Below, piece by piece: positions 600 to 29,272 of a stretch of DNA of 29,272 nt. The notes under the pieces are model-generated. The model was given only the letters and a program-made list of their open reading frames with translations, had not been told where the DNA came from and made no database searches. The stretch lies in NCBI RefSeq assembly GCF_011745625.1, contig NW_027191484.1, positions 248,001-277,272 on the forward strand, read 5' to 3'. The DNA is from Cladosporium halotolerans (lineage: Eukaryota). Positions within the stretch are counted from its first letter, which is position 1; each line of letters starts with the position of its first letter. A program made the translations under genes and the position numbers.

Positions 600-1765
600 A
601 TGACCACAGCGATTCGCGCTCCAGCTTCCTTGCTGCGCGACTCGTCTATTATGCCCGGCCTGAGGATGGGTTTTGATTCGATGGCTGCGTGGGACAAGAC
701 CTCGCTTGAATTTGATGATCACATCCTGAAGAGGTGCGTTCCTGCCGATTGTTCCCATGCACGTTCGTCGAGCTGACGCGAATCAGAGCACACACATCAA
801 CAATCGCTCCCCGACATGTGAACAAGATCCAAGGTCGATCGTTTTCAGATCCAATCTACAAGCCGCCCTCCTTCAGAACAGCGACATCATCATGGAGCCC
901 TCCCGCGTCCCCAACATCACCAATTTCGCCTTCATCAATACCCAGATCCATACCAACGACGGTCACCCCGCCTAGATCTCCCCAGGTCAACCCTTCAACC
1001 CGCGCTGCTCCCACCCTAACACCTCGAGAACGCCACTCCCTCGCCGCGAGACTCTACGCGGCCGCCTGCACCGGCGACCTCGCGCAAATCTCCATCCTCA
1101 TCTCCCTCGGCGCCCCCCTCAGCACCGCCACGCAAGTCAAAGGCCTCTACGAAGCCTTCAAGCCCGCGAAAAACGGCCACCTCTCCGCCCTCGCCGGCGC
1201 CGCCTCCCAAGGGCAAATCGCCGCAGCCCAAATCCTCCTCTCGCACGGCGCCGAAGTCAGCCCCAGCGTCGCGCAGTCTTCTTCTTCACCCCTGCACCAA
1301 GCCTGCCACGCCAACGACATCGCCATGGCCCGCTTCCTGCTCGCCGCGGGCGCCGACGTCGACGTCCAGAACTGCTACAACTCCACGCCGCTCATGTACG
1401 CCGTCAAGTACGGGTCCTCGGCGCTCGTCGCGCTCGTCCTGTCGTACTACCCTCGTCTGGAAACGACGGCTTTCATGGAGACGACGGCCGCGCATTGGGC
1501 GGTGTTTAATAGCCGGCCGGAGGCGCTGGCGCTGCTGCTGCGTGCGGGAGCGAACCCTGATGCGCGGATGGTCGATGGCAGCTCGCCGTTGCACTGTGCT
1601 GCTATGAGCGGGGCGCAGGATACGGCGGGGTTGTTGGTGGAGTTTGGTGCGGATGTGGTGTTGAGGGATGGGCAGGAGAGGACGCCGGGGGAGGTTGCGG
1701 TGTGTAATGGGAGAGGGGAGTTTGTTGAGATGCTGCAGAGAGTCGCGAGGGAGAAGAAGGCATGA
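600..1765 (+). CDS. Ankyrin-repeat protein; exons 600-733 and 787-1765
   Basis: Several ankyrin motifs (SPLHQAC..LLAAGADVD, TPLMYAV, TAAHWAV..LLRAGANPD, SPLHCAA..GAD). In-frame ATGs at 600, 651, 666 and 681 join the 734-1765 ORF through an intron GTGCGT(734)...GCTGAC...CAG(786) in the correct phase. The start choice is uncertain. Confidence 0.85.
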
Positions 1766-4714: not shown

Positions 4715-6864
4715 AAGTACCCTCCACTTAGAAGACCCAGAAAGTTGGCGTACTCCCAGTCCGCCATCGTGAAGGTCGTATTGGCCAGAGACGAACGGTT
4801 TGAGAGTGTTCCAGACTACATCTACATCCAACAAGGCCGGAAGGAATGAGCTGAAAGTAATGGACGAAATGTTGCCGTAAGTCAAGCAGATACTGAAGTT
4901 GAAGGAAGATCAATGTGAAAGAACAAAAAGTAGGGTGTTCTGAGAAATTCGCATTTGGCGATGCTCATACAGTTCGTTCATATTCCGACGAGGCAGCCGG
5001 TAATCTCCCGCTGATTGGACCGACGCATTCTCCCCATGTCTCTAACGTGTGTTGCGGATTAAGGTAGACATTATCAGGCAGGAAGGTGGTGATCATGCAT
5101 GTTTTGAGTGAGAAAGCGCTCAAGTGATATCGCTACGGATTAGCTGGCACGAGAATTAAATCGTCGGTGCGAATCTGATGACAAAGTGTGGGTTTGCGCA
5201 ATTTGGCCGTTCGCATTAGCGTGGTAAGCCGCAAAATCACATGCGTTCGTAAAGAGCACACCAGTACGGCCGCTCCTGCCAATCGACAGGTTTCGCAAAG
5301 AAGCTCAGACCTCCGCGTCGCGAACGTCACTTGTCCGATTGATCAAGTTGGTTTCCGTTCAAAAACCACCGTCGCATTGCGCGCATCACTTGATGGTACG
5401 TCTCGACGTGAAAAATTCATGAAGGATATGTCGCAGTAAGCCTTCCGAGTCGCTAGCGCACAACCATTAGCACATGACACGACACGATATCTACTTGTGA
5501 AACGAAGACAAGATCGATTCTACCGCACGTCGCATCTGTTGGATTTCTCCAATATCTACCTTTTCAGAACGCGGATCGAACACGTGCGATCGGGACGTAT
5601 GTATGGGCAGCCTAACTGGCATCGTGTTTAGTCCACGTCATTTTCGGCGCTAGAGTCCGTCTGTTCGACGTACGAGATGTTCGAACTATCCGCGAAATCA
5701 GCCTGACGATCTTCGGATGTAGTTTGTCAGATCCCAGCAAACCCAATGGATGCCCTGGGATTGCGCAAAGGTCATAATGGTCAATGAATTGAACCTTCAG
5801 GACATGAGAGACCTCCCGTGATATAGAATATTCCGCAACTTCCCGTAACATTTTTCAGGCAAATGTCGTTTCTGGCAACATTCAGTGCTGTCCTTTCCGT
5901 TGTCGATCATGATCTGTTCATCTATATCTAGTGATTCTGTCAGTTTATGACAGCTGCGACTGCCAGCCTGGAACCTCTATGATCATATGTTCCTTCTGTG
6001 TGCGGAGACAGAGGTGTGAGTGGTCGCTCAGGTGCTCGAACAAAATTGACAAGGCCCGACAGCACTCGATGCCATATGACTGGCCCAAAGGATACATCAG
6101 CTGATCATTGACAAGCAGTCTCATAGACATTGCAAGGTCATGCATAGCTTTCGTGGATATGGCAGACCTGGGACATTATTGCACCCTCGTCGATGATCAA
6201 TCTTCGTCGGCATTGCTCTACCGTTTGAGGCCAAATTTGTCGAGTTCAATCACCTGCCTTGTGAAGTCTTGTATCAGCGTTCAAGCCGATGGCACATCTG
6301 TGAGAGCGACTTCGAATGTCCGGGATTTTGCACTTTGTCTGTTGAGTGTATGCTCACTACAAATGCTTTCAATCAACAGCGCGGTTCCCTTGTCCCATCA
6401 TCTTCTTGCCACACTGTCGTCCACGTCTACTTCAAGCGACGGATATATACAAATTGAACCCCTATCAGCTCACTCGTGGGAGTTTTACATAGGGCTATCC
6501 AGACCTCCAGTAGCCCTGGTTTCGGTGCTCGAATTACACAGGATGACGGCACGCTGCTGCAGGCGAGCGGAGTTCTTTTCTTCTAAAGTATTCTCCGCTA
6601 CCTCATCGGACTCACCGCACCACCGCTAGCAGAGCTCGATCAATCTGTCGTCACACCACAGAGAGCGACACAAGCAAGAGCTGCCCCGCGTTGCCGGTAT
6701 TCCACGGCGGCACACGACTAGATCCTGTTGTAAGCGAGCATATCCAGTGGCGCACACAGGACTTCAGGAGTCTGCTCTTGCCATGTCTGGCAGCTCGCAA
6801 ATAAGCAGCTCGGTAAACAGAGGTGTGCCGATCCCGCCACATACCTAAAGTGGCATATGCCGCT

Positions 6865-7941
6865 ATGAAAAAGCTGCTGACGCTGCTCATGGTCGCCACA
6901 TTAGGCATCTTGACATCTTTGCCTGATCAAATCCATCTCATCAGGAACCCTACACATCATGTCCACCTTTTCCCGGCATACACACCCACTGCTCAAGCCG
7001 AGCAGGGTCGCTTGATCATCATCGGAGATGTACACGGTATGCTCAATGAGCTTCAGAGCTTGTTGAGAAAGACACAGTATTCTAGTGCAAATGGCGACCG
7101 CATCATCTTCACTGGCGACCTGGTCAACAAGGGTCCGGACAGCGCTGGAGTCGTCCAGACTGCTATGGATCTCAATGCCAGCAGTGTACGTGGCAATCAC
7201 GAGGACAAAGTCTTGCGAGTCTGGGCAGAAGCTCAAGAAGCGCGCATCCATGCTGAAGCTCAAGGCAAAGACGGTCGCAAGGCGTTGAAGAAGTTTGAAG
7301 CAGGGCTCAGCAAGAAGAAGCGTGCAGCGCTCGACGTGGCGCGGTCATTATCTTCAGAGCAACAGCATTGGATCGCTTCTCTGCCCGTTACGATTGACCT
7401 CGGCCATCTACCTGGAATGGGACATTGTATAGTCGTCCATGGCGGGCTGGTACCAGGCGTGTCTCTTGAGAACCAAGAGCCTTGGGCTATGTACAACATT
7501 CGCGCGTTGATCGATATCAACCACCTCGGCGCGAAGAGCGAGAAAGACGCCTACAAAGCCACTATTACTGAGCGGTTGACAGACATGCGACCTGGAATCG
7601 AGCCTACAAAGACTCAACTCTCGAATGCGAAGCAGGAGCTACTTGCGAGCTATAAAGAAGCCGGATTCATCCCTACTGGCGAGTTTCACGACGGCACCTG
7701 GTGGGTCGAGACATGGAACGAGCGAGAGAAAGCAAAACCAAAGGAAAGCAGGCTCACAGTGATTTACGGGCACGATTCGAAACGAAGTATTCAACAGAAA
7801 GACTTCTCGATTGGTCTAGATAGTCGATGCGTCGAGGGCGGCATGTTGACGGCACTGGTACTGCAGCTGAAGGAGGGTTCGGACGTGAGAAGCTCCGAAC
7901 TGGGGCGTAGCCTGGTCGGCGTGTCCTGCCATGATGAGTAG
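6865..7941 (+). CDS. Calcineurin-like metallophosphoesterase, PPN2/YNL217W-like, with N-terminal hydrophobic signal/anchor
   Basis: Motifs GDVHG, GDLVNKG, RGNHE, VVHGG, YGHD and GLDSRC. The first ATG (6865) opens MKKLLTLLMVATLGILTS. Confidence 0.88.
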   Translation: MKKLLTLLMVATLGILTSLPDQIHLIRNPTHHVHLFPAYTPTAQAEQGRLIIIGDVHGMLNELQSLLRKTQYSSANGDRIIFTGDLVNKGPDSAGVVQTAMDLNASSVRGNHEDKVLRVWAEAQEARIHAEAQGKDGRKALKKFEAGLSKKKRAALDVARSLSSEQQHWIASLPVTIDLGHLPGMGHCIVVHGGLVPGVSLENQEPWAMYNIRALIDINHLGAKSEKDAYKATITERLTDMRPGIEPTKTQLSNAKQELLASYKEAGFIPTGEFHDGTWWVETWNEREKAKPKESRLTVIYGHDSKRSIQQKDFSIGLDSRCVEGGMLTALVLQLKEGSDVRSSELGRSLVGVSCHDE

Positions 7942-8420
7942 AACGAACGGCTTCGTGTGGCCCATCGCATGGCAGGCATATCGAATAAGCCTCCAGTTGA
8001 TTAGCTTTGTGTAGCAATCAATATATATCACGCGAGATAATCTTCTGCACACCAGATCTCACGTCAGCGGTCGTGTAGGCGAGGCGCATCCGATCTCTCA
8101 TGCGTTCAGCCTCAGGCACAACAAGCTGGGGTCGCGCTTGCCGTCACATGCCCACCTCGACAGCTGCTGTTTGATGCTTCTTAGCCAGCCACGTATTGCC
8201 TCACCGCTCACCCTCTTGACCAAACCTAACGATTGCCACCGCTATCAAGCTGGCGCCCAGAGGATTGAACACGTTCGTTCCCCGACGCCCTTTTATCCTC
8301 TTCTTCCTTCTCCTCCTCGCAACCGTGGCTATCTTTCAGCTCCTCTCCGCTCGCTCGCGGACGTTCGCACCAAAGGCTATATTCTCTCTTGGAAGCTTCA
8401 GACCGGTCACTACAAGCGCT

Positions 8421-10571
8421 ATGGCGGGAGCCAAGTTTCAGAAGCCTCCCCAGGCGCCGCCTCTCTTCACTCACACTCCGGAATCCCTTCTAAAGGCTGC
8501 CGATCGTCTGCTGGCACAGAGCAAGGCGACTACGGACAAGGTGGTCGCCGCCAACACGCCTGAGAATGCGACATTTCAGAGCGTCATTCTGCCAATGGCG
8601 CGCGATGACAATCATCTGAGCCTTGAGTCGCACATCGTTGGTTTCTACCAGGCAGTCTCGACTGACGCGAAGCTGAGGGATGCGTCCACTGAGGCGGAGA
8701 AGAAGATGGATGACTTTTCGATTGAGGCATCGATGAGGGAGGATGTCTTCCAGCTGGTGGATGCGGTATTCAAGAAGCAAAAGAACGACGAGAAGCTGGA
8801 CCCGGAGAGTAGGCGTCTGCTCGAGAAGGACCACAAGGGCTACATCAGGATGGGCTTGGGCGTTCCTGCTGGGCCGCAGAGAGACCGCTTCAAGGCGATC
8901 AAGAAGCGCCTGTCTGAGCTCAGCATTACGTTCCAGAAGAACCTGAACGAAGAGCAGGGAGGTCTTTGGTTCACGCCGCAAGAGCTGGATGGTGTGCCGG
9001 AGGATGTGATGAGCAACCTGCAGAAGGGCGAGGCAGGGACGGAAAATGAGGGCAAGCTCCGCCTGACCTTCAAGTACCCAGATCTGTTCCCTACACAAAA
9101 GTACTGCAAGGTCGTGGAGACGAGGCACAAGGTGTTTGTTGAGAATGAGAACAAGTGCAACGAGAACATCGCGCTCTTCAAGGAGGCTATCGTTCTCCGC
9201 GACGAGGCAGCTCGCATCCTCGGATATCCCAACCACGCTACTTTCAGAATCGAGGACAAGATGGCAAAGACACCCAAGACTGTCGACGACTTCCTTGGAG
9301 ACTTGAAGTCACGCCTCGCGCCCGGCGGTGTGAAGGAGATTGCCAAGCTGAAGGAGCTGAAGAAGGCCGAGACTGGCAAGGCCGACAACTACTTTCTCTG
9401 GGACCACCGCTTCTACGATACTCTCATGCTTGAGAAGGACTTCCAGCTTGATCAGAACCGTATCGCAGAGTACTTCCCTCTGCAAACTTCTATCGAAGGA
9501 ATGCTTAAGATCTTTGAGGAGCTCTTTGGTCTTCTCTTCGTGAAGGTTGAGGGGGAGGATCGCAAGGCAATCTCTGAGACCGGCAAGGGTGAGGACATCA
9601 CGTGGCATCCGGACGTGCAGATCTTCTCTGTCTGGAATGATGAAGGTGAAGGCAGTGGATTCGTTGGCTACCTGTACCTCGACCTCCACCCTCGTGATGG
9701 CAAGTACGGTCACGCCGCCAATTTCAACATTCAGCCCGGTTTCATCACCGAGAGTGGCGAGCGCCGCTACCCTGCGACCGCCCTTGTGTGCAACTTCAGC
9801 AAGCCTTCGGCTAAGAGACCTTCCCTCCTGAAGCATGATGAAGTCGTCACTCTCTTCCACGAGCTTGGCCACGGCATCCACGATCTTGTTGCCAAGACAA
9901 TCTACTCTCGCTTCCACGGCACCAACACAGTCCGCGACTTCGTCGAGGCGCCCTCACAGATGCTTGAAAACTGGTGCTGGACACCCTCACAGATCAAGAG
10001 CCTCTCCAAGCACTGGTCGTACCTGTCGCCTGAATACGCCGAGGCATGGAAGGAGAGCTCGAAGTCGACCGAGCAGCCGCCTGAGTCTATGCCTGACGAT
10101 CTGATCAACAATATCGTCAACACTCGCCACGTCAACGACGCCCTCTTCAACCTCCGCCAATTGCACTTTGGCATTTTCGACATGACAGTCCACGAGGCCG
10201 CTTCTCACGAAGAGATCAAGAACCTCGACGCAAGCGAGACTTACAACCGTCTCCGCAAGGAAATCAGCAAGATCGACGGCCCAGAGGCGCTCGGCGAGGG
10301 CTTCAAGTGGGGCCACGGCCAGGCGACCTTCGGTCACTTGATCGGCGGCTACGATGCTGGCTACTACGGCTACTTGAGCAGCCAGGTCTACTCGGCCGAC
10401 ATGTTCTACAGCGTCTTCAAGAAGGATCCTATGAACGGCAAGGAGGGCAGGAGATACAGGTACTTGGTCCTCGAGAAGGGCGGCAGCCGTGACGAGATGG
10501 AGAGCCTGAAGGAGTTCCTCGGACGCGAGCCGAGCACCGAGGCTTTCTACAAAGAGCTGGGCGTGGCGTGA
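8421..10571 (+). CDS. mepB: M3 family metallopeptidase (MepB / thimet oligopeptidase / saccharolysin-like), intronless; possible non-AUG N-terminal extension from 8250
   Basis: Motifs TLFHELGHGIH (zinc site), DFVEAPSQMLENW, YLDLHPRDGKYGHAA and GYDAGYYGY. The first in-frame ATG is at 8421. Confidence 0.93.
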   Translation: MAGAKFQKPPQAPPLFTHTPESLLKAADRLLAQSKATTDKVVAANTPENATFQSVILPMARDDNHLSLESHIVGFYQAVSTDAKLRDASTEAEKKMDDFSIEASMREDVFQLVDAVFKKQKNDEKLDPESRRLLEKDHKGYIRMGLGVPAGPQRDRFKAIKKRLSELSITFQKNLNEEQGGLWFTPQELDGVPEDVMSNLQKGEAGTENEGKLRLTFKYPDLFPTQKYCKVVETRHKVFVENENKCNENIALFKEAIVLRDEAARILGYPNHATFRIEDKMAKTPKTVDDFLGDLKSRLAPGGVKEIAKLKELKKAETGKADNYFLWDHRFYDTLMLEKDFQLDQNRIAEYFPLQTSIEGMLKIFEELFGLLFVKVEGEDRKAISETGKGEDITWHPDVQIFSVWNDEGEGSGFVGYLYLDLHPRDGKYGHAANFNIQPGFITESGERRYPATALVCNFSKPSAKRPSLLKHDEVVTLFHELGHGIHDLVAKTIYSRFHGTNTVRDFVEAPSQMLENWCWTPSQIKSLSKHWSYLSPEYAEAWKESSKSTEQPPESMPDDLINNIVNTRHVNDALFNLRQLHFGIFDMTVHEAASHEEIKNLDASETYNRLRKEISKIDGPEALGEGFKWGHGQATFGHLIGGYDAGYYGYLSSQVYSADMFYSVFKKDPMNGKEGRRYRYLVLEKGGSRDEMESLKEFLGREPSTEAFYKELGVA

Positions 10572-12271: not shown

Positions 12272-13879
12272 TCAGATGACGTACTGCGAGAAAGTCAGGA
12301 CATGCTTGCAATGGCAGTGTCGTCTATTCACTTACGGGAATGAAGAGGTAAGGAACCTCTTTCTCATAGCGCTCCCACGCCTTGCCATACTTTCTGCGGC
12401 ACCTAGCGACATCTCTCTGAGTGCGGTGGATGATCATGACCATGAAGAAAACAAAATAGAACCAAGGAAACGGGCTCCTACAGACAGCTGGTTAGCGATG
12501 ATCTTAAAGACTTGTCGAGGAACCGCGTTGTCTTACTTGAAGCCCGTGATCAATCCCCAGGCCATGGAGAAGAACATGTCTGGCACGTAGTTCGGCTTTC
12601 GGACGATTGCAAACCAGCCGTCGACCATAATCTTGTCGCCGGCGTCGGTCTCGATGAACTTGGGGTTCTTCACAGCCTGCCATGGCACCTGCGGGAAGGT
12701 GTTTCGCTTGATGATCTGGTCTTTCTCTCCAAGTCGGACGGCGTTCTTCTGTCCGTTGGCGCTGTCCCACATCCAGTAGAAGAAAAGATACGCAAGCGCG
12801 AATACTGCCAGGGCATAGCGGTTCCAGCGATATTCGGAGGGATCATGGTTGGCCAAGTAGAGCGCGCAGTGGCAGTAGGTGAAAGGCACGCCGGCCAGGT
12901 TCCAGAAGGTAAGCAAGAAACCCAGCTTCTCGAAGTACATGTCCCTTGATTGCACATTAGCCTCGATCTCACGGAAATCCATGAAGCACAGAATACGATA
13001 TTTGACAAATTTCAGCGCCGTGAAGACTTACCAGCTAGTAATGATCAGATGCTCGCCTTTCGCACAAGCGTTCGCGTAAAGATAGTGGGCTCCGGCAAGG
13101 AAGATCACCTCCGCAGAGACATAGCCATACTTCTCGTACTGGCGAGCCGCCACAGAAGATGTAATAAGGAATAGGATAAACCATGGGATTCGCACTTCGT
13201 AGAACATTTTGAAGTCCAGAATTCCAATGCGAGGGTTCAGTTCGGCTCCGACGAAAAAGTCGTAGATTGTGGATCCTGTCATGCGGAGGGTGCGACCGCG
13301 TACGATGGCCTGGATGTAGACTATGAAGCTGTTGATGAATCCGGAAAGGATGGCGACGCTCATGATGGAGCCGAACTCGTCAATGAGAGTGTACAACGGG
13401 AAGATCTTCGTGAAGTGAAGAACAGCCGCGACAGCGATAGTGGTGTAGAAACTGCTGTAGGCGGAACAGTAGTAAGGCAGTCGCTTGCCTCCCTCATGGT
13501 TGAGTCGGCGGCCGTAACTGAGAACGCCTGGCATGTAGCAATACATGAGGGCCTCGAAGACGAAAAACACCCAATAGATGGCCCATGCCTTAGCGGTTGG
13601 GTAAGCTCCTTCGTAGAGCAAGTTACCAAGGTGTCGCACGAAGTCGGTCCATGACTGATCTTGATGAGGCAGAGGGAGTTGGCCGTCATAGTATGTCGCG
13701 CCGATCCACATATACCACATCAGAAGAGGGAATCCAATCATGAGGGAAGAGGCGCCAAACACGCCGCCAAATTCGAACTCATCAGTGGCTCCATCTTTGT
13801 AGTCGGTGGCTGCTAGTCCGTTGGATCCTTTCTCAGATGTTGCGATTTCCGCTCGAGGCTTTCTTTGCGAGACACCCAT
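12272..13879 (-). CDS. ERG4: Delta24(24(1))-sterol reductase; exons 13879-13032, 12944-12537, 12477-12336, 12283-12272
   Basis: ERG4 motifs [86 protein letters not shown]. Three frame-consistent introns. Confidence 0.95.
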
Positions 13880-14875
13880 GTTTCAGCTGTACTGGAAGTG
13901 GTGCTGTCGCAATCGGACAGGGCCTGAGTCGATGCAAGGTGGACGACCACGCCGTGGCGGCCATAGTCACGTACATGTACTTACCTATACGAGGCCAATT
14001 TTACACGATCGGCTGTTAGCCTTCATTAATCCACTGATGGGGCTGAAGCACTAATTCTAGACTACCAGTCCTGTGGAATACTTCCTGCGGATCCTCGTTT
14101 TTCTCGGGATAGATGGCAATTGGGCATGCAGGGGAAGGTGGAGGCTGATGTCAGCCTTCGAAGCGAGCCGGGGATCATCTTTTCCACCCGTCGATGCGTC
14201 CGGTACTTCCCAGTAGTTGGAGTGGGACGTCTGTAGACGAAATTAAACGATGACCGTGCTGTGCTTTGTCACCAGGAGTGTGCGAGGCGGCATCGTACGA
14301 GGTGCCTCGGCTTTGCTGGCATCCGGCTTGGCTGCCTTTCTGTTTCTCGTCCTCGACATCTGCCGGCTTTCAGGGAATTCCATTCCGCCCGCATTGCGAA
14401 ATGTGCACACCTTATGCATGTGTCAATGCGTCTGAGCAAGAGAGCAAAAGAATTGTGAAACGTCTGGAGCTTGCGCCATTCATCCTCCCTGAACAATGAG
14501 CCAGGCAGCTCTGAAAGAGGCGGTTTGCCGCTCAGGCTCGCTTCATCTACGCAGAAACACACCAGTTCTGGCAGGTCTCGATAGCGAGGTGAAACGGTAA
14601 ACGCTGAGGGTCACCTATGGTATGATGGCCTCTTTGTATCACCAACATGTCAGTGAATGGCAATTGCTGCTATGCATTTGCTTAGGGTGAGTCAACTGCT
14701 TTCCGTCGACAAAGCCGTCTGGGATCGAAGACTTTCACCTATATCGAAGTGAATGGATCACGGAGAAACCCTGCGGCCTGTGGGCAAACGTGTTACTCAA
14801 CGTGACATTTAGAATCTGCAGAGTCCGTGGGGTGGAGGTCACCAACGAGCAAGCACTCATATTCAGGCCAACGCA

Positions 14876-19484: not shown

Positions 19485-20390
19485 GGCGGCGCGAGTGCGG
19501 CAGCAAGAGGTCTCGGGGCAGGGCGGAGTGGAGCGACGAACGGGGCCACACGAGGGAGAGTGGACGGCGCATGTTGCAGGCCTTATACAGTAGCGGTGTG
19601 GCTCACGGAGCCCAGCGCAGCATACAGCTGCGCCCGTCTGCAGGCAGCACCTGCCCGCCGCACGCGGCTTCTCCACACTGGCGTCACGATGCCGAGGCCG
19701 ATGTTGACCAGCTGCCTGCGCTGCCATTTGTCTGTCAGCTCTTGCAACTCATCTGACGCTGCATCGTGACCACCGGTGTTTCGAGATAGCTAGACTCATT
19801 CGAATCTTCGGCCTTCAGACCCTTCCATTCGTGGTCTGAAGACTTGTTAAGGTTCTGCGTCCAAGTCAGCCTCCCGCCTCAAGCGTTCTCATTGCCTCGC
19901 GAGTACCTGCATCATCGGTTGCCTTCGCCAGGTACCACGCATTCGTCAGGCACCCTCCACTAAGAAGCGAGTCCAATTCGAAGTGACTGCTATACATCTT
20001 GAGCCGCGACATACCAGCCCTGTCGCTAGTTGGTAAGTGGCAAAGTGCTTGGGGACGCAGTTACGTCCTTAACCCTCTTCACGAGCGTGGCAAATACCCT
20101 CTACTTCGACAACTTCGATCAAAGGCTCACACCATCAATCCATTCCAATCGAGACTAGTGTGCGATGAATAGACTCAGAAGGCTAGAGTAGTCGCTCGAG
20201 ATCGCAGACCTTCGACAACGAAGCCCATAAACGTTCGGTTGACGATTAATCGTCACGCGTCTCGATGATATCACAGCCACGCCTCTTTTATTCCCTTCGA
20301 TATGCTCAGCGTCCTTAAACTTCCGACCACTCAATCCTGACTTCTTGCAGCCAAGCACCTCGGAGTCGGACCTCGTCCTTTCCCAAGCCC

Positions 20391-21479
20391 ATGCTCGCTC
20401 GTCTTACAGAGCTGAGTAGAACGATCGTCTCCTCACCACAAGCCCGCATCATGAGCACCTCGACGAAGCTTCCAGCTTCGTGGCATCAAGGCCCTGAAGA
20501 CTCGTTCCACGGCAAAATCACTGCGGATGGGCCGTTCACTCCGGACAAGGGCCGTTACCATCTCTACATCGGCCTCTTCTGCCCGTTCGCACATCGACCA
20601 AACTTGGTTCTCCACCTCAAGCAATTGGACAAACATGCCGGCATCGACGTCAGTGTTGTCAGACCGTACCCTAAGGGCACCGAAGGCTGGCGGTTCAACG
20701 TTGCGGGCGAGCCACCTTATGAGGACGCCACGGAAGAGCCCTTTTTCGGCGCTCGCTTCATTCATGAGCTTTACTTCAAAGCAGACCCCGACTACAAAGG
20801 AAAATACTCTGTTCCCGTCTTGTGGGATAAGAAGCTCAACACCATCGTCAACAACGAATCTCACGAACTTCTGAGGGACCTCCAAACGTCGTTCAACGAC
20901 ATCATACCCTCAGACCTGGCTAGCTTGACCCTATATCCTGAGAAGCACCGCGAGAAGATTGATCGCATCGAAAAATGGATGCAGTCCGATCTGAACACTG
21001 GAGTATACAAGGCCGGCTTTGCTCCTGATCAAGAGGTCTACGAGAAGAACCTCCCGCTTTCATTCGCCGCACTCAACAAGCTCGAGAAGCTCGCCGTTTC
21101 TACCGGCGGCCCATACCTCCTCGGCAAAGAGATGACGGAGCTTGACATTCGCGCATACGCTACGCTAATTCGCTTCGACACCGTGTACGTCCAGCATTTC
21201 AAATGCAATCTCGGCACAATTCGGCACGACTATCCAGTGCTCAACAACTGGCTGAAGAACTTGTACCATAATCATGCGGAATTCAGAGAGACAACCAATT
21301 TCCGGCACATCAAGGAAAACTACACGAAGAGTCACCTGGACATCAATCCGAAGATGATCACGCCAGTGGGCCCATGGCCGAATGTCGAGCAAGGCTACGA
21401 GGAGGATTGGTCGAGGCTCAAAGTTGGCGAAGTGGGCATGCCCGAAGTGCTGGAGCACGAGAAGAAGCTGGAAGTATGA
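20391..21479 (+). CDS. Glutathionyl-hydroquinone reductase (ECM4/GTO/YqjG-type Cys-GST)
   Basis: Motifs RYHLY..CPFAHR, YSVPVLWDKK..IVNNES, NTGVYKAGFA, TLIRFD.VY..HFKCN, HIKENYTKSH..INP..ITPVGP. Confidence 0.93.
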   Translation: MLARLTELSRTIVSSPQARIMSTSTKLPASWHQGPEDSFHGKITADGPFTPDKGRYHLYIGLFCPFAHRPNLVLHLKQLDKHAGIDVSVVRPYPKGTEGWRFNVAGEPPYEDATEEPFFGARFIHELYFKADPDYKGKYSVPVLWDKKLNTIVNNESHELLRDLQTSFNDIIPSDLASLTLYPEKHREKIDRIEKWMQSDLNTGVYKAGFAPDQEVYEKNLPLSFAALNKLEKLAVSTGGPYLLGKEMTELDIRAYATLIRFDTVYVQHFKCNLGTIRHDYPVLNNWLKNLYHNHAEFRETTNFRHIKENYTKSHLDINPKMITPVGPWPNVEQGYEEDWSRLKVGEVGMPEVLEHEKKLEV

Positions 21480-23388: not shown

Positions 23389-24597
23389 TCAGACATATCC
23401 AGGTTGTGCCTCGCTGGATCGTACTTGCTCCATCCAGTTAGAGACCCGGGCATGTGTCCTCTCTTGAGGTTTGTCATCACTTCCTGCATCAGAACCTTCC
23501 GCGCGTATGACCTCTGCCTCTTCGAACACCGTGTGTGGAATCTGGGAAAGGGCAGCTTGTAAGCTATCTTGATATCCCGCTCGGGGTCCGCCCTCCTCAT
23601 TGACCAAAGCAGACAGAGTGGATTGCGCTGTATCTACATTTGCTGTGAACGCCGGATCGAGGGCCATCTGCTTGCCACCGTTCAAAGCTTCAGTGGCGGA
23701 CAGCCACTGTGCTTTAATACCATCAGCTTCCTTGATGGCGCGGCTCAATTCTTGCGAGATGGATTCTTTCTCGAGCTGCGCGTTCGTCTCAAAATCCTCG
23801 TCGGGTAAACTGAGAGTTTCTTCATGGTCACGCCGGAGCTCCCTTCGGGCAACTTCATTCCAATACTCGAAGTTGTGCTCTGCAAGACGCTCACCAAGCA
23901 CGCTCACATCACTTGACTTCTGATTAAAGCGCCTCACAAGATGATCTAAGTCTGATACCGATGATGCAGCTGACTTGGGACGACCGGGTTGCCCATCTTT
24001 CCAATCTGGTGGCTGATCGAGTCGGGTGATAGCCGTCTGGAATCCGGGAGTCTGAACCCACAAGCGCGCCGTCAATATGAAATTCGTCTCGTTACGAGAG
24101 CGATACTGTTGTGCTGCTTGGAGCTCCTGCTGTACCCTCCTCACGTGAGTCGCGTGTGACTCCGCGTCCGACCTGTCGGTGATGTGAAGCTCGCGCAGAG
24201 TCGCAATGTCTCGACCGGCTCCCACTGGGTCTGATGGAGAGCGGAAAGGGTCGACAGCATTCTCGTAGAGCGTGCGCGACTTTCGGTAGACCTTCTGTCG
24301 TCGTTGCCATTCCTGCTCAGCCTTCTCCAGTTCTTTGACTAGTGTTTGCTCGTGAAAGCGCGAGGCCTCCACTTCTTTCCATTGCTGCATGAGTCTGTCA
24401 CTCGAAGGACGATCTGTTTCTTCGCTCATTGTGGATATCGGAAGGCTTTGCACAGATTGTCGTCGACGAAGAAATCTCATGTTACTAGCTGGATGACTGC
24501 TTGGTGCGCGCATGGGCGGGCTGGCGACACGCTCTTTTTCCGTTCGAATGGCTCCTTCACGACCAGGCAGACCTCGTCGCTCTGATGAATCGTCCAT
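23389..24597 (-). CDS. Hypothetical coiled-coil protein (paralog A), divergent from the DUF6590 gene
   Basis: 402-aa ORF with E/Q/R-rich helices. It shares an ungapped 80-aa block with the 27208-28335 ORF. Confidence 0.75.
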   Translation of the reverse strand: MDDSSERRGLPGREGAIRTEKERVASPPMRAPSSHPASNMRFLRRRQSVQSLPISTMSEETDRPSSDRLMQQWKEVEASRFHEQTLVKELEKAEQEWQRRQKVYRKSRTLYENAVDPFRSPSDPVGAGRDIATLRELHITDRSDAESHATHVRRVQQELQAAQQYRSRNETNFILTARLWVQTPGFQTAITRLDQPPDWKDGQPGRPKSAASSVSDLDHLVRRFNQKSSDVSVLGERLAEHNFEYWNEVARRELRRDHEETLSLPDEDFETNAQLEKESISQELSRAIKEADGIKAQWLSATEALNGGKQMALDPAFTANVDTAQSTLSALVNEEGGPRAGYQDSLQAALSQIPHTVFEEAEVIRAEGSDAGSDDKPQERTHARVSNWMEQVRSSEAQPGYV

Positions 24598-25018
24598 TGG
24601 AGATCACTGCTCGTGTAAATGGTGTCAATATCTGTGCTGCTTGCTGCTTTTGATCCCCTATGAAGCGAAAATGTGTACGGGAAAAGTTCTATCTGGAGGC
24701 TACGTGCCAGAGGTCATGTTTTGATGACTGCTTGGCACCTTCACAGGGGTGCTGGATATAGGGTGCCTCAAGACTAGATGTCTGGGGTCGGCTCGGAAAC
24801 GAGCTAATAAGCCGACGAATAAAGCTCGTGATCTCATGCGTGCAGCACTTGGCAAGCCTTGCAGTATCATTGCATCCAGCTGTCAGCCTACAGCCAACGC
24901 ATGATCATGGCGCTCATCGTTGTTCTGCTGCTACATGGGGAAAAAGCCACCACGCATTACTACCCAACGGACTGTCGGAGGACATGTAGCTAGAGGCGCG
25001 ATGAAGCTTCCGATGGGG

Positions 25019-25115: not shown

Positions 25116-26412
25116 ATGAGTTCTCCGACTTCATCTTCGTTGCCCTCAGGGATTCAGTGGCAGCTCGATCCGCAGACAAGGCGATGGTTCTACATCGACA
25201 GTCGTACGCGGCAGCGTGTCTATCATCCGCAACCTCAACATCAAGCTCTCAATGCCCCGAGAAGCGCCCCAGCTCCACCCAGGGAGGTTCCCCCCTTCGA
25301 ATACCGGCCGCCAAGGAAGACTCTCGATCAAGGTACACCTTTCTCGACCAGAGTTCGCGGTTGTTCACAACGACGACTGACCTTCGCAGATTACAAAGTC
25401 CGAGTCCATCCGAGGAAGTTCTTCAAAATTGGCAAGGTCAGTCGTGTGGCTTTCAATGACCTGACACTCATTGACAAAGTGATCAGGTGTTCCTGACACT
25501 GCATACCGAGCCTCGTGGGAGCAATTCTACGCTCAACACAAAGAACCATGATATTTACACCGTCGCTTTGGGCGAACAGGCGTTCAGCAAAATCAGGCGT
25601 TTCATCGTCGTACGCGAAGGCCGAGATTCATGCAGTGCGTTGTAAGTATTGTCCCTATCCCTAATCTTCGACAATGACTGATTTGAGGAAGGGCAATCTC
25701 AACCCACAGCGGCAATGGAGCTTCTCGAAGGAATGCGTCTGAGCATGGTATCGTTCATACCACTGGCACGAGACCGCCACCAACGATGAGACAGGAAGAC
25801 GGCCTCCTGCCATCGCCAATTCGAATTGATCCGTTGAATGAGGACGACAGACTCGACGCAACATCCCGTATGGACTATGGCAAGCTGTACAACATCGAGC
25901 ACAACGTCAAGGTCAAGCCGTACGGTGTTGTGAACAACCAGTCTATGCAAACTCTGATCAAGCAGTGGACCCAAGTCTTTTTCGGGCGAGCCGCCACACC
26001 TGCAGCAACGGCTTTCCGTTCACCCAACCCCCAGACGCTTCAAGCCTTGAAGTTCTCTCCAAGCCAGATCAGACAAGTCTTGAACATTCTGTCAAGGCGG
26101 GGAGCTGATCCCCGGCAGGTGATCACTTCAGTGGCAAGGGCCTCCGCGGAAGAGGCTCTTGGTACGAAAGCGCTTGCAGATCATGCGGTCGAGCTCATTG
26201 TAGCAGGCATGGACTATAATGCAGCAGTTGCTCAAACTCGTTTGCTGCAGGACAGGAGGAAAGAAGCCGACGAAGACGACAGTGGCGATGAGGGTATCGA
26301 TGCTCAGAATTCGGAAGAAGAAGAAGAAGAAGATGATGATGACGATGATGACGATGACGACGAGGAGGATGAAGAGGAAAGCTCCGCTGACTCTGGCTCT
26401 GACGATGAATAG
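25116..26412 (+). CDS. DUF6590-type protein (PemK/MazF-like by eye) with WW-like N-terminus and acidic C-tail; exons 25116-25332, 25390-25436, 25487-25641, 25692-26412 (379 aa)
   Basis: The spliced core reads KFFKIGKVFLTLHTEP..FSKIRRFIVVREG..CSALAISTHSGNG..EHGIVH..PIRID..LDATSRMDYGKLYNIEHNVKVKPYGVV, matching the fungal DUF6590 pattern as I recall it. Three introns give a 1140-nt in-frame CDS. Confidence 0.85.
26314..26379 (+). repeat. Coding (GAA)6/(GAY)n trinucleotide tract encoding poly-E/D
   Basis: GAAGAAGAAGAAGAAGAAGATGATGATGACGATGATGACGATGACGAC... Confidence 0.9.
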
Positions 26413-27207
26413 TGATTCCTCCTTCCGACGAAGCAGTCCCCACCGCCTGCAGACCTTTGGAGAAACAGCACACCCCGTTTCCTTATTTGGAGTTTTACGG
26501 ATGCTTGACGACCAAAGACAGCGGCCGCCACAGACTGACGACACTGCAAGTTTCTTGTAACCCTTGCGCTCTTGTGCTGATGCACTCAACATACTGGCTA
26601 ATCGAGCACAGAACTCTTCCAAGGAAGAGAAGCTGCGGCTTGACTAAGCTATCTTTGGCCTGTGCAAATTGTCTGCAGCTGATGCTTTTCTTCATTATCT
26701 TTCATTGTAATGAGACCAACGAACCCTGATCCAGCCAGATTGTATTTAGCGTATTTATCTTCGAGCTGAAACTAGCGATGTCTTCCGTTCAACTGTTCAG
26801 ATGCACACAGTGGCCGTCTTGTTACACCAGTGACTTTTGCAGCTTCACGTTGCGCTGGGCACAAGAGAAGCTCAAAGTTCGCGAGCGAAATAAGGTATCC
26901 TAGCAAAGCCACGCACTGGCGTGAAGAGCCTTTGAGCGGTAATGGAGGTTGAATATCATCTCACAACATAAGGTCGCAATGATGAAGTTGATGAAGGAAA
27001 CACAGCAAGAACACCCTTGTCACTTGTGCATCAAAGCGTAGTGTCCTCGTTGAAGCCGGGTGCTTTTAGGTCGGTCTATGATGCAGATGAAAGAGCTATG
27101 AAGAATCATCGTCGGCAGAGGCATACCTGCCGGTGTTTCATGAGAGTACCTGAATGTTTGAAAATATCTCTTTGCTTGTACTCGCCCTCGGTAGCCCAAA
27201 CACGCTG

Positions 27208-28257
27208 TCAAGTCGTTGGTCGGCACGGATGTCCCAGCGCGCTCAATGACTTCACCTTGCGAATTGGAGCAAGATGAAGATCGCTGAGAGACCGACTTTT
27301 CGACCTACCCACGTCAGTAATTCCTTCATTGTCTTCTGCATGGCGTGTACGAGTATCTGGGGACTTGATCTCCATATCGTTGACCCATGAAGCTATTCTC
27401 TCTCCGCGAAGGGGCTCGCCAGTGTGCTGTGTAGGAGCATTTCCGAGAATAACATCTGTCAGTACTAAAGCCTTACTGCTGGACCGAGAACACGCATTAG
27501 CCGTCTCAAAGCTGTCAACACTTGCTTTCTCGGAAGTCTGCCAATCTTGGACGGGATTTGCAACCCCAATATTAGGGAAATCGACTCTGGCCCACGGAGG
27601 AATTTCGATCTGTTCCTTTCTGCATACGTCCAAGGCAGCCTCAACAACTTCCCATGCCTTGTGAAGAGCCTTTTCGCCAGTATCGAAGTGTTTCTGCCAG
27701 GATCGTTCGAACTCTCCGTCGCTTTGTTCCAGCGTCTGCTCCTGGTCCAACATCAGAATTCGCCGTTCTTCCTGTTCTTGCTTCTCAATATGAAGCTCTG
27801 CCCATCTCTCATGAACATTGTTTAGGGTGCCGACCGCGTCGAAGTACTGCTCAAGACTTGTATTCTGCGGTGGAGTAGACTCTTGCGAGGCAGAAGAAAA
27901 CACAGACGATGATGTCCCCAACGATGCATCAGACCAGTCGTCGACTTGATCTTGCAGGCCTCTTCCCTCTACAGCAGCATACATGGCACGGGCAGAATTC
28001 TCAGACCGACGCTCCGCTCTTTGTATTCGCATGTGACTCTCTTCCAAGTCTTTCATGAGCACTTCAACATCTTGTAGCTGGCTAATGAGCATTTCCATTG
28101 CCTTTCGCGCTTTGATTTTGAGCCTTTTCTCCTTAGCCTTTCCGGCAACTTTGGTATCCTGCATGCCTTTCGACTTTCCCCTCATCATGGAGTCCATAGT
28201 GGCCTTTAGATGCTTGGCTGTGTACTGAAGTGTGTTCCACTGATGACAGATCTCCAT
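27208..28257 (-). CDS. Hypothetical coiled-coil protein (paralog B), convergent with the DUF6590 gene; start uncertain
   Basis: The frame is open from 28398 and the first in-frame ATG is at 28257. It carries the block YFDAVG..ERWAEL..E..RR.L..DQEQTL..SD.EFE, similar to paralog A. Confidence 0.72.
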   Translation of the reverse strand: MEICHQWNTLQYTAKHLKATMDSMMRGKSKGMQDTKVAGKAKEKRLKIKARKAMEMLISQLQDVEVLMKDLEESHMRIQRAERRSENSARAMYAAVEGRGLQDQVDDWSDASLGTSSSVFSSASQESTPPQNTSLEQYFDAVGTLNNVHERWAELHIEKQEQEERRILMLDQEQTLEQSDGEFERSWQKHFDTGEKALHKAWEVVEAALDVCRKEQIEIPPWARVDFPNIGVANPVQDWQTSEKASVDSFETANACSRSSSKALVLTDVILGNAPTQHTGEPLRGERIASWVNDMEIKSPDTRTRHAEDNEGITDVGRSKSRSLSDLHLAPIRKVKSLSALGHPCRPTT

Positions 28258-29272
28258 GCGCCTCGATGCATCATCGCGTCGAAGATCAGATGTTTTGCCG
28301 TGCCGTCTCTTGTAAGTTTTGACAAGCACAGGCAAAGGAGAATGTATTGACGTTCCTGACTGTTCCTTTGCAAGAGGGACATGGTCGGTGTAATTACTCT
28401 AAAGGTTTCCTTAGCGAATGAGGAAGATAATGCACAAACACTTCATATATTACCCCATAATCTGGAGAGTTATCTCCCACATCAACATAACTTGCGGAGG
28501 AATTGCTCACAGCCGAAGACCCATGCACAACACCAGAGCTACTCTCATGCGATCGCACACGAGTGTTTAGCGCCACAGGATTGAAGGCTTGCATGACAAG
28601 ACGCTAGTCGCTATACTGATGGAGTGAAAAGCCGAGGCAAGTGCCGGAGAAAGGGAATGACACGTAAAAGATGGCTAAGCCCAGTGTTATGAATTGGTCG
28701 CCGGAGCGTGGACGCCTTGTGACCCCTAATGAGAAGCCGAACGGACGATGAAATGAACACGAAATGCCGTGTCCGGGACGGTCAAGCCCAAACCCTTCCC
28801 ATTGGGCGCCACGAGCCACAGTCTCGGAATCTTCCTCGACTTTTGGCATATGCAGCACTTGAGAATAAAGCATGCATACCTTGGTGTACGTGCATGCATG
28901 GTGTGCTGGCGCGGCTGACATGCGTCCGCTTGGTACCACACTTCAAAGGTCACATTACAGAGCTAGCTCGTCAAAGCAGGACTGCCATTGCCTATATGAA
29001 ACTGGACACAGGATCCGGACGATCGCCATGGACTCACCATTATCCATCGAAGATGAACCATGTCACAACAAGGCTTCAGCCCCCACTTTGGGAACCACAT
29101 TTCCTATGATCCTCGAGAAGACATCATAACTTTTCCGGATGGCCAACGATTCGCACGCCCTACGGACATACTCCAGAGAGTACACCGACAGTCATGTCCA
29201 ATAATTTTGCCATGTTCATGTCATGTGCAGTGGGAAAAATCTATGTTCATATTCATGTCGCGTCATGTGCAG

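What the first reader, a model, noticed from the sequence alone, without database searches (positions are those of the whole stretch)
25410..25980. The spliced DUF6590 core aligns motif by motif with MazF/PemK endoribonucleases
By-eye correspondence to E. coli MazF (recalled sequence): GKVFLTLHTEP ~ GDLIWVDFDP; KIRRFIVVR ~ GHRPAVVLS; SCSALAIST ~ MCLCVPCTT; SRMDYGKLYNI ~ GVALADQVKSI; VKPYGVVNNQSMQTLIKQW ~ TKKGTVAPEELQLIKAKI. The order is collinear, and positions equivalent to MazF catalytic Arg29 and Thr52 are Arg and Ser/Thr. The motif only appears after three introns are removed, so the ORF track hides it. RNase activity is an inference.
Basis: inference. Interest (0 to 1): 0.8.

Follow-up and report, generated by a model that had tools for sequence, protein, structure and literature searches.

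The report
Fungal DUF6590 domain with MazF fold
An intron-split gene of a Cladosporium mould encodes a protein whose uncharacterised DUF6590 domain is predicted to fold, and to pair up, like the bacterial RNA-cutting toxin MazF, so fungi may use a MazF-like module, though no RNA cutting has been shown.

Summary
The gene is real. It has four exons (25116-26412, + strand), and all three introns are spliced in RNA-derived contigs of other runs. It encodes 379 aa: a weak WW-like start, a full DUF6590 domain (PF20233, E 6.4e-45), a helical linker and a poly-acidic tail.

By sequence alone the match to MazF is marginal. BLASTP gives E 10. Profile-profile gives P 0.044, and 9 of 200 column shuffles reach that score.

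- Two AlphaFold models (domain pLDDT mostly above 90) have only MazF-family chains among the Foldseek rows shown.
- A Foldseek-independent search puts MazF, Kid and CcdB at ranks 1-11 (Z 9.5-7.4), with the first unrelated chain at Z 4.9.
- A homodimer is predicted (0.67 against 0.01 for the best control).

The arginine aligned with MazF Arg29 is nearly invariant (163 of 164). The conserved Thr/Ser sits one residue after the position aligned with Thr52. MazF and CcdB are tied by fold, and RNase activity is untested.

Two of 148 relatives carry the domain at the N-terminus of NACHT-ankyrin (NLR-type) proteins. I found no paper linking DUF6590 to MazF.

The parts
25116..25332 (+). Exon 1 (ATG at 25116; residues 1-72 plus the first base of codon 73). 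Includes a WW-like stretch, residues 15-36 (about 25158-25223).
   Evidence: Reading. WW Pfam hit below cut-off: E 0.0025 for the exon alone and E 0.018, 15.5 bits against a cut-off of 26.9, for the protein. Three short strands at 16-36 with pLDDT 87-90. Weak match to the GAS7 WW domain, E 0.77.
25333..25389 (+). Intron 1, 57 nt, GT..AG
   Evidence: Skipped in the X1 contig (skips 57, GT..AG, 253 letters on the shorter side).
25390..25436 (+). Exon 2 (residues 73-88). The DUF6590 match begins at residue 81 (about 25413).
25437..25486 (+). Intron 2, 50 nt, GT..AG
   Evidence: Skipped in one X10 contig (skips 50, GT..AG). Retained in the X1 contig.
25487..25641 (+). Exon 3 (residues 89-139 plus two bases of codon 140). 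First half of the DUF6590 / MazF-fold domain. Codon of the near-invariant R125 at 25595-25597.
   Evidence: PF20233 profile 10-60, E 7.6e-9. R125 is R in 70 of 70 sequences and in 163 of 164 non-gap domain copies. Aligned with MazF R29.
25642..25691 (+). Intron 3, 50 nt, GT..AG
   Evidence: Skipped in contigs of X5 and X10. Retained in the X1 contig.
25692..25998 (+). Exon 4, first part (residues 140-242). Second half of the MazF-fold domain, with its C-terminal helix 222-238. S143 at 25699-25701 and the conserved T144 at 25702-25704.
   Evidence: PF20233 profile 63-151, E 6.9e-24. Strands and helix. Structural matches span model residues about 78-242. T144 is T in 133 and S in 33 of 172 copies.
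25999..26262 (+). Exon 4, linker and helical region (residues about 243-330)
   Evidence: Helices 263-275 and 280-305 at pLDDT about 64-76 in the P0002 model. The region is conserved in homologues P0003-P0016.
26263..26412 (+). Exon 4, poly-acidic tail and TAG stop (26410-26412). Approximate start.
   Evidence: Translation. The last 60 residues have net charge -31 and the best 20-aa window is 100% D/E. The tail is present in homologues. RNA-derived contigs run through this region without a joint.

Best explanation
The gene encodes a 379-aa intracellular protein. Its core, residues about 78-242 (Pfam DUF6590), is a fungal, intron-bearing branch of the bacterial MazF/PemK/CcdB toxin fold: an SH3-like barrel followed by a C-terminal helix.

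Shown in silico: the fold; a predicted symmetric homodimer; and a set of strongly conserved polar residues. These include an arginine that aligns with the general acid/base Arg29 of E. coli MazF, and a Thr/Ser at the end of the next strand.

Inferred: the dimer binds single-stranded RNA in the groove between the two subunits and cuts it by MazF-type, metal-independent transesterification. R125 would do the chemistry, and T144 (or S143) would stabilise the transition state. This would shut down translation as a growth-arrest or death effector.

The effector reading rests on relatives in which the same domain is the N-terminal module of NACHT-ankyrin (NLR-type) proteins. That is the slot which, from my general knowledge of fungal NLRs, holds the executing domain.

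Fungi have no operon to supply an antitoxin. Control would have to come from the flanking parts of the same chain (WW-like start, helical linker, poly-acidic tail) or from other proteins.

My odds: MazF/CcdB fold about 0.9; true homology about 0.8; active endoribonuclease about 0.45. The confidence given for this explanation is that of its least certain step, the RNase mechanism.
For: Fold
- Foldseek on two independent family models lists only MazF-family chains among the rows shown.
- The VIA-align wide scan has 8 chains at Z >= 8 and 13 at Z >= 5 out of 48,161. All 13 are MazF, Kid, CcdB or type III RNase toxins, and nearly the whole target is covered (89-109 aligned residues).
- 122 of 990 re-aligned chains reach Z >= 8, and the 50 rows shown are all MazF or CcdB.
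- The ESM Atlas's own model matches PemK clusters (TM by row 0.65 and 0.74), and a PemK cluster is at rank 6 by language-model features (0.85, a lead only).

Dimer
- Score 0.67 against 0.01 for the best control. The mark was reached by 21 of 30 proteins solved as pairs and 0 of 23 solved as single chains. On eukaryotes it was reached by 17 of 29, but by only 1 of 7 with no older solved relative.
- The runs agree in at least 86% of contacts, and the partner's pLDDT is 84.
- The interface uses strand 203-207 against itself, the long 95-118 loop, and helix residues 236-237.
- In MazF the last helix is part of the dimer interface (PMC11394972, passages).

Residues, counted over 172 domain copies from 148 proteins
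- R125: R in 163 of 164 non-gap copies.
- T144: T or S in 166 of 172.
- H158: 149. K152: K or R in 144. R199: 150. K213: K or R in 164.
- hhalign places R125 on R29, E118 on E24, and S143/T144 on T52/T53.
- Arg29/Thr52 (Arg25/Thr48 in B. subtilis MazF) are the catalytic pair (PMC8887465, PMC10893535, PMC11394972; passages). In MazF-mt3 the residue after the catalytic Thr also lies 4.4 A from the scissile phosphate.

Context
- P0039 and P0047 are DUF6590-NACHT-ankyrin proteins.
- P0039's cluster has 4 full-length members of 1144-1148 aa (P0039, P0289, P0290, P0291; seen on 15 contigs in all), so the fusion is not a gene-model artefact.
- 24 of 147 relatives carry 2-3 tandem copies, which fits a unit that works as a dimer.
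Against: - Sequence-level similarity is marginal: BLASTP E 10; hhalign P 0.044 and probability 1.2%; 9 of 200 shuffles reach the score.
- No PemK Pfam hit for P0002 at E <= 10. PemK is not among the 25 families shown, of 48, for the 70 members.
- No Foldseek match reaches E <= 1e-3.
- CcdB, which poisons gyrase and is not a nuclease, is tied with MazF by Z (8.7-8.8).
- The position that aligns with catalytic Thr52 is variable in the family (T35, V25, S24, A20, N16, Y11). The conserved Thr is one residue later.
- I could not measure whether Arg and Thr are close in space.
- The window's protein has no NACHT module, and only 2 of 148 relatives examined do.
- No neighbouring gene resembles an antitoxin.
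- The dimer pass may come from the model's memory of solved MazF dimers (caveat).
- No experiment exists.
Confidence: 0.45

Rival explanations
1. The domain has the MazF/CcdB fold but is not a nuclease. It acts by binding a protein target, as CcdB binds GyrA, or as a dimeric adaptor. The conserved polar residues would form a binding surface.
For: - CcdB is tied with MazF structurally: 1vub_A Z 8.7, rmsd 2.6, 90 of 95 residues aligned; 2vub_B Z 8.8.
- The Thr52-equivalent column is not conserved.
- Sequence profiles do not reach PemK significance.
- The protein carries a WW-like module, a protein-binding type of domain.
Against: - The near-invariant Arg falls where hhalign puts MazF Arg29, and a conserved Thr/Ser sits beside the Thr52 position.
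- The Foldseek rows shown and the named rows of the Atlas structure search are MazF/PemK, not CcdB.
- The only PHROG hit of a tandem relative is 'MazF-like growth inhibitor' (E 0.21, weak).
- I did not run a comparison with a CcdB profile.
Confidence: 0.28
2. The domain is a non-toxic RNA- or nucleic-acid-binding domain derived from the MazF fold, working in ordinary RNA or chromatin metabolism. The acidic tail would be a generic nucleolar or chaperone-like feature.
For: - The domain is net basic (25 K+R against 17 D+E) and the tail is strongly acidic.
- The tail gives weak hits to nucleolar and Pol III acidic-region families: Rpc31, Nop14, NOA36.
- Most relatives have no other domain and no immune-type partner: 143 of 148 show only DUF6590.
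- The window around the gene holds ordinary genes.
Against: - The family is large and diverse: 2190 representative clusters at E <= 1e-3. It also shows tandem copies and NLR, kinase and ankyrin fusions. That pattern suits a variable effector better than a housekeeping factor.
- Conservation centres on Arg, Thr, His and Lys residues typical of a catalytic or phosphate-binding site.
Confidence: 0.17
3. The resemblance is chance or convergence on a common small beta-barrel. DUF6590 is unrelated to MazF/CcdB.
For: - Sequence statistics are at the chance border.
- The tool notes that a best Z of 7 to 8 is typical for models without a clear Foldseek match (note).
- No Foldseek E <= 1e-3.
Against: - Nearly the whole target chain is aligned, including the C-terminal helix.
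- There is a clear gap between the family (Z 9.5-7.4, then type III toxins of the same fold) and the first unrelated chain (4.9).
- The result is replicated with a second member and with an independent ESMFold model.
- The predicted dimer uses the last helix, as MazF does.
- The low-confidence sequence register puts the near-invariant Arg on the catalytic Arg.
Confidence: 0.07

Closest known systems
MazF/PemK/Kid type II toxins (Pfam PF02452), e.g. E. coli MazF, S. aureus MazF/PemK, M. tuberculosis MazF-mt1/3/9
   Same: - Predicted fold over about 100 of 110 residues (Z up to 9.5-9.9).
- C-terminal helix.
- Predicted symmetric homodimer.
- A long loop between the first two strands that reaches across the dimer.
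- A near-invariant Arg aligned with Arg29, and a conserved Thr/Ser next to the Thr52 position.
   Different: - No significant sequence match.
- About 60 residues longer, with inserts: a 97-118 hairpin loop and a 163-197 segment.
- Eukaryotic, and split by three introns.
- Embedded in a multi-domain chain.
- No adjacent antitoxin gene.
- The conserved Thr is shifted by one position.
- Further conserved residues (H158, K152, R199, K213) have no counterpart that I could assign.
- Activity is unknown.
CcdB (gyrase poison, F plasmid)
   Same: Same superfamily fold. Z 8.7-8.8, rmsd 2.6, 90-91 aligned residues. Tied with MazF.
   Different: CcdB acts by binding GyrA, not by catalysis. I did not compare DUF6590 with a CcdB sequence profile, so the gyrase-contact residues were not examined.
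Type III toxins ToxN / AbiQ / CptN (RNases of the same fold)
   Same: They appear directly after MazF, Kid and CcdB in the structure scan: CptN Z 6.9, AbiQ 5.3, ToxN 4.9 and 4.8.
   Different: Lower similarity. Their inhibitors are RNA repeats, and no such repeat is implied here.
N-terminal effector domains of fungal NLRs (HET, HeLo, patatin, PNP_UDP and others; list recalled, not from a call)
   Same: In P0039 and P0047 DUF6590 sits in the N-terminal slot, directly before the NACHT Walker A motif, followed by ankyrin repeats.
   Different: - Only 2 of 148 relatives examined have this architecture, and the window's own protein has no NACHT.
- Two surveys of fungal NLR domains do not mention MazF, PemK, CcdB or DUF6590. 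This holds for the main text of PMC9815663 and PMC12258605 and for the supplements that could be searched.
Pfam DUF6590 (PF20233)
   Same: Full-length match, E 6.4e-45, profile 1-151 of 152.
   Different: The family carries no function. The link to the MazF fold is what is added here.

Membership tests
DUF6590 (PF20233) | Match to the Pfam model above its gathering score (27 bits) | tested here: met
   153.3 bits, E 6.4e-45, residues 81-229.
MazF/PemK (PF02452) | Match to the PemK_toxin Pfam model above its cut-off (23.1 bits) | tested here: not met
   No hit for P0002 at E <= 10. PemK is not among the 25 families shown, of 48, for the 70 members at E <= 1. hhalign against a 30-sequence MazF/PemK alignment gives P 0.044, probability 1.2%.
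MazF/PemK/CcdB superfamily | SH3-like barrel plus C-terminal helix | tested here: met
   Predicted models only.
MazF/PemK | Homodimer with the last helix in the interface | tested here: met
   In silico only. Score 0.67 against 0.01 for the best control. The interface includes 203-207, 95-118 and 236-237. I did not superpose it on a solved MazF dimer, and the pass may reflect memory of solved relatives.
MazF/PemK | Catalytic Arg (E. coli Arg29 / B. subtilis Arg25) | tested here: met
   R125 aligns with R29 in a low-confidence hhalign alignment. It is R in 163 of 164 non-gap copies.
MazF/PemK | Catalytic Thr (E. coli Thr52 / B. subtilis Thr48) | tested here: inconclusive
   The aligned position 143 is Ser in this protein but variable in the family. 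The conserved Thr/Ser is 144, aligned with Thr53. No coordinates were available to measure distances.
MazF/PemK type II TA module | Adjacent cognate antitoxin gene (MazE/PemI/Kis type) | tested here: not met
   The gene is eukaryotic and stands alone. The flanking ORFs, 23389-24603 (-) and 27208-28398 (-), have no Pfam family.
MazF/PemK | Sequence-specific ssRNA endoribonuclease activity | not testable with these tools
   Needs an in vitro cleavage assay.
CcdB | Gyrase (GyrA) binding through C-terminal residues | not tested
   Only the fold was compared (Z 8.7-8.8).
WW domain (PF00397) | Match above the gathering score (26.9 bits); three-stranded sheet | tested here: inconclusive
   15.5-18.3 bits, below the cut-off. 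Three strands at 16-36 with pLDDT 87-90. 3 of 70 relatives match WW at E <= 1.
Fungal NLR (NACHT-repeat protein) | NACHT/NB-ARC module and C-terminal repeats in the same chain | tested here: not met
   This protein has none. 2 of 148 relatives do.

The most novel reading that the evidence does not exclude
DUF6590 is a eukaryotic MazF-type endoribonuclease that fungi use as a death or growth-arrest effector. It would occur free-standing, in tandem as a single-chain pseudo-dimer, or as the executing N-terminal domain of NLR immune receptors. The poly-acidic tail that follows the domain in many members would be a built-in, RNA-mimicking inhibitor, making the protein a one-chain toxin-antitoxin.
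Probability: 0.15. Interest if true: 0.85.

Novelty: new variant of a known kind. Interest (0 to 1): 0.62.

Why it matters
As far as I know (recalled), and as far as my searches show, MazF/PemK/CcdB toxins are treated as prokaryotic and plasmid proteins. The searches 'DUF6590', 'PF20233' and 'fungal NLR' + 'MazF' each returned 0 papers. 'MazF' + 'eukaryotic homolog' + 'fungi' returned 2 papers that look unrelated by title and abstract.

A large fungal family with this fold (2190 representative clusters at E <= 1e-3) would give the family a testable function. It would add an RNA-targeting candidate to the list of fungal NLR effector domains. It would also be another case of bacterial conflict modules reused in eukaryotic cell-death systems. 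If the domain is active, it could serve as a sequence-specific RNase tool of eukaryotic origin.

Tried and rejected
- Own genome. None is held for this window, so I could not count paralogues in this fungus.
- PDB by sequence. phmmer with P0002 gave only two chance-level hits. hmmsearch with the family profile hit only acidic low-complexity tails (37 rows, none MazF).
- hhalign of the whole A1 alignment against single MazF. A 15-column match, probability 0.9%.
- Prokaryotic relatives. A pattern scan of 185,579 species genomes found 28 pattern matches, none confirmed by tblastn. No bridge family was found. The method is narrow, so this is no evidence of absence.
- PHROGs and PADLOC. Nothing for P0002. 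One weak hit to 'MazF-like growth inhibitor' for the tandem relative P0021 (E 0.21). The other hits were to the ankyrin or P-loop parts of P0039.
- Search for longer fused relatives. Only 4 hits, all with DUF6590 alone. It adds nothing on NLR fusions.
- Acidic tail docked on the domain. In the AlphaFold model of P0027 the last 45 residues have pLDDT 52-60, so there is no confident placement. This neither supports nor excludes cis-inhibition.
- Earlier notes of this scan. Nothing on this genome, and one unrelated prophage MazF note.
- Spatial distance between R125 and T144. Not obtainable, because no model coordinates are given out (one search shows none in /data).
- Review PMC7781912. It holds none of the residue names I searched for.
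Full report
1. The gene

Reading the + strand gives an ATG at 25116 and four exons: 25116-25332, 25390-25436, 25487-25641 and 25692-26412. They are separated by three short GT..AG introns of 57, 50 and 50 nt. Joined by coordinates, they make a 1140-nt frame with a single terminal stop, that is 379 aa.

The first 296 residues are identical to P0002, a 306-aa protein that a public source names 'hypothetical protein WHR41_07821 [Cladosporium halotolerans]' / 'DUF6590 domain-containing protein'.

RNA-derived contigs of related strains (95-99% alike) carry the spliced forms. Intron 1 is spliced in X1, intron 2 in X10, and intron 3 in X5 and X10. The identical DNA contig X15 has no joint.

2. What the protein contains

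Pfam gives a complete DUF6590 match: residues 81-229, profile 1-151 of 152, E 6.4e-45. It is collinear across intron 3.

The N-terminus gives a sub-threshold WW match (15.5-18.3 bits against a cut-off of 26.9). It folds into three short strands at pLDDT 87-90.

After the domain come a helical linker and a poly-acidic tail. The last 60 residues have net charge -31.

The public model P0002 replaces that tail through a fourth intron (26162-26611). Against that model:
- Homologues P0003-P0016 keep the read-through helical and acidic sequence.
- Contigs of X1 and X5 cross 26162 without a joint, and an X10 contig lies inside the supposed intron.
I therefore take the read-through form as the main product.

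3. Sequence similarity to MazF

I took E. coli K-12 MazF from the annotated genome. The results:
- Pairwise BLASTP gives E 10, in another register.
- No PemK Pfam hit appears at E <= 10.
- Sequence searches of the PDB give nothing relevant.
- I built a 30-sequence MazF/PemK alignment from MazF, ChpB, 16 diverse plasmid toxins and 12 homologues, and compared it with the 70-sequence DUF6590 domain alignment. The score is 16.8, P 0.044, probability 1.2%.
- 9 of 200 column shuffles reach that score.

Run loosely, the alignment is collinear over the whole domain. It gives G87~G10, E118~E24, R125~R29, S143~T52, T144~T53, and pairs the C-terminal helices. By sequence alone, then, the match is a lead and not a finding.

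4. Fold

- First model. The AlphaFold2 model of P0002, built from 70 sequences, has a mean pLDDT of 79.1, with most blocks of 70-240 above 90. It has eight strands followed by helix 222-238.
- Foldseek against 350,542 PDB chains. Every one of the 30 rows shown is a MazF-family toxin. The best E is 4.7e-3, target-normalised TM is 0.53-0.66, and none reaches E <= 1e-3.
- VIA-align scan, independent of Foldseek, over 48,161 representative chains. Ranks 1-11 are MazF, Kid and CcdB (Z 9.5-7.4, rmsd 2.5-3.2, 89-107 aligned residues of chains of 94-118). CptN follows at 6.9 and AbiQ at 5.3. The first unrelated chain scores 4.9.
- Re-aligning Foldseek's top 990 chains. 122 reach Z >= 8. E. coli MazF 5ckd_A scores Z 8.8, rmsd 2.8, 103 of 109 residues aligned. 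CcdB 2vub_B scores 8.8.
- Second family member. P0027, 36% identical, gives the same Foldseek picture.
- ESM Atlas. Its own model of this protein matches PemK clusters.

The fold assignment is therefore robust for a prediction. It does not separate MazF from CcdB.

5. Dimer

Two copies of residues 70-242 score 0.67 against 0.01 for the best of three controls. The runs agree in at least 86% of contacts, and the partner's pLDDT is 84.

The mark was reached by 21 of 30 proteins solved as pairs and 0 of 23 solved as single chains. On eukaryotes it was reached by 17 of 29, but by only 1 of 7 with no older solved relative. The pass may therefore reflect memory of MazF dimers.

The interface is symmetric. 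Strand 203-207 lies against itself. The long 95-118 loop crosses to the partner. Helix residues 236-237 touch residue 131 of the partner. In MazF the last helix is part of the dimer interface (PMC11394972, passages). I did not superpose the two dimers.

6. Conserved residues

In 172 domain copies from 148 representative proteins:
- R125 is R in 163 of 164 non-gap copies.
- T144 is T or S in 166 of 172.
- H158 is H in 149.
- K152 is K or R in 144.
- R199 is R in 150.
- K213 is K or R in 164.
- Position 143 is variable.

Arg29 and Thr52 of E. coli MazF (Arg25/Thr48 in B. subtilis) are the catalytic pair (PMC8887465, PMC10893535, PMC11394972; passages read). In MazF-mt3 the residue after the catalytic Thr lies 4.4 A from the scissile phosphate.

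The Arg criterion is therefore met at the level of a weak alignment. The Thr criterion is unresolved, because the conserved hydroxyl is one residue off.

From the DSSP strings alone, strands 119-131 and 136-144 form a hairpin. In a regular hairpin of that register, residues 125 and 144 would point to the same face and 143 to the other. This is my inference and not a measurement.

7. Family context

The family is large: 2190 representative clusters at E <= 1e-3, 1080 at E <= 1e-10 and 76 at E <= 1e-30. The Atlas clusters are mostly Ascomycota.

Of 148 relatives scanned with Pfam (32, 70, 46):
- All have DUF6590.
- Two, P0039 and P0047, are DUF6590-NACHT-ankyrin proteins.
- Two have ankyrin repeats without NACHT.
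- One has a protein kinase domain.
- The rest show nothing else significant.

In P0039 the domain is followed directly by the Walker A motif. Its cluster has four full-length members of 1144-1148 aa, seen on 15 contigs in all.

24 of 147 proteins carry two or three tandem copies.

65 of 147 have a window of at least 60% D/E within the sequence after the last domain (median 58 residues downstream). None of 147 has one before the first domain. The asymmetry is striking. Its meaning is open: AlphaFold does not place the tail on the domain.

The window around the gene holds ordinary genes: ankyrin, metallophosphoesterase, peptidase M3, ERG4/ERG24 and GST. The two flanking ORFs have no family.

8. 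Reading

The best-supported statement is that DUF6590 is a fungal branch of the MazF/PemK/CcdB fold that very likely dimerises.

The mechanism I commit to, at about 0.45, is MazF-type cleavage of single-stranded RNA by the dimer, with R125 as acid/base. The domain would serve as a growth-arrest or death effector, and in some relatives an NLR would switch it on.

The main rival, about 0.28, is a non-catalytic, CcdB-like binder.

9. Novelty

Literature searches:
- 'DUF6590', 'PF20233' and 'fungal NLR' + 'MazF' each returned 0 papers.
- 'MazF' + 'eukaryotic homolog' + 'fungi' returned 2 papers, unrelated by title and abstract.
- Two surveys of fungal NLR domains do not mention MazF, PemK or CcdB in the main text (PMC9815663 and PMC12258605).
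- Their supplements hold no DUF6590, PF20233, PemK or MazF. For PMC9815663, 11 files were searched and 2 were not. For PMC12258605, 5 of the 17 files were not searched.

I could not check whether Pfam already files PF20233 in the CcdB/PemK clan. AlphaFold-based fold catalogues may already list the similarity. I therefore rate this as a new variant of a known kind and not as categorically new.

Noticed in passing
window 26162-26611: The public protein model P0002 removes a 450-nt fourth intron and ends in a short unrelated C-terminus. Homologues keep the read-through helical and acidic sequence. RNA-derived contigs of X1 and X5 cross 26162 without a joint, and an X10 contig lies inside the supposed intron. 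The annotated 3' end is probably wrong or a minor isoform.
   Followed up: partly
window about 25158-25223 (residues 15-36): A degenerate WW-like module: Pfam WW below its cut-off, three strands at pLDDT 87-90, and a weak match to the GAS7 WW domain. 3 of 70 relatives match WW at E <= 1.
   Followed up: partly
relatives P0018-P0164 (not in the window): An acidic window (at least 60% D/E in 20 aa) follows the last DUF6590 domain in 65 of 147 proteins and precedes the first domain in 0 of 147. This is a position-specific feature that no result here explains.
   Followed up: partly
relatives P0018, P0019, P0021 and others: 24 of 147 relatives carry two or three tandem DUF6590 domains. These are possibly single-chain pseudo-dimers.
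   Followed up: no
window 25388-26305, contig of run X1: One 1527-letter contig has intron 1 spliced but introns 2 and 3 retained, with one letter missing at 25653 inside intron 3. It is either a partly spliced transcript or a strain difference.
   Followed up: no
window 23389-24603 (-) and 27208-28398 (-): The two long ORFs that flank the gene have no Pfam family. They are weakly alike: 25% identity over 157 residues, E 0.003 for the single comparison.
   Followed up: partly
window 719-1765, 6817-7941, 8220-10571, 13028-13882 (-), 20319-21479: Other ORFs match ankyrin repeats, a calcineurin-like phosphoesterase, peptidase M3, ERG4/ERG24 and a GST. The surroundings are ordinary fungal chromosome.
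   Followed up: no
P0141 (relative, named by its source as a Pycnora praestabilis MAG protein): A protein kinase domain (residues 36-237) is fused upstream of a DUF6590 domain (467-620).
   Followed up: no
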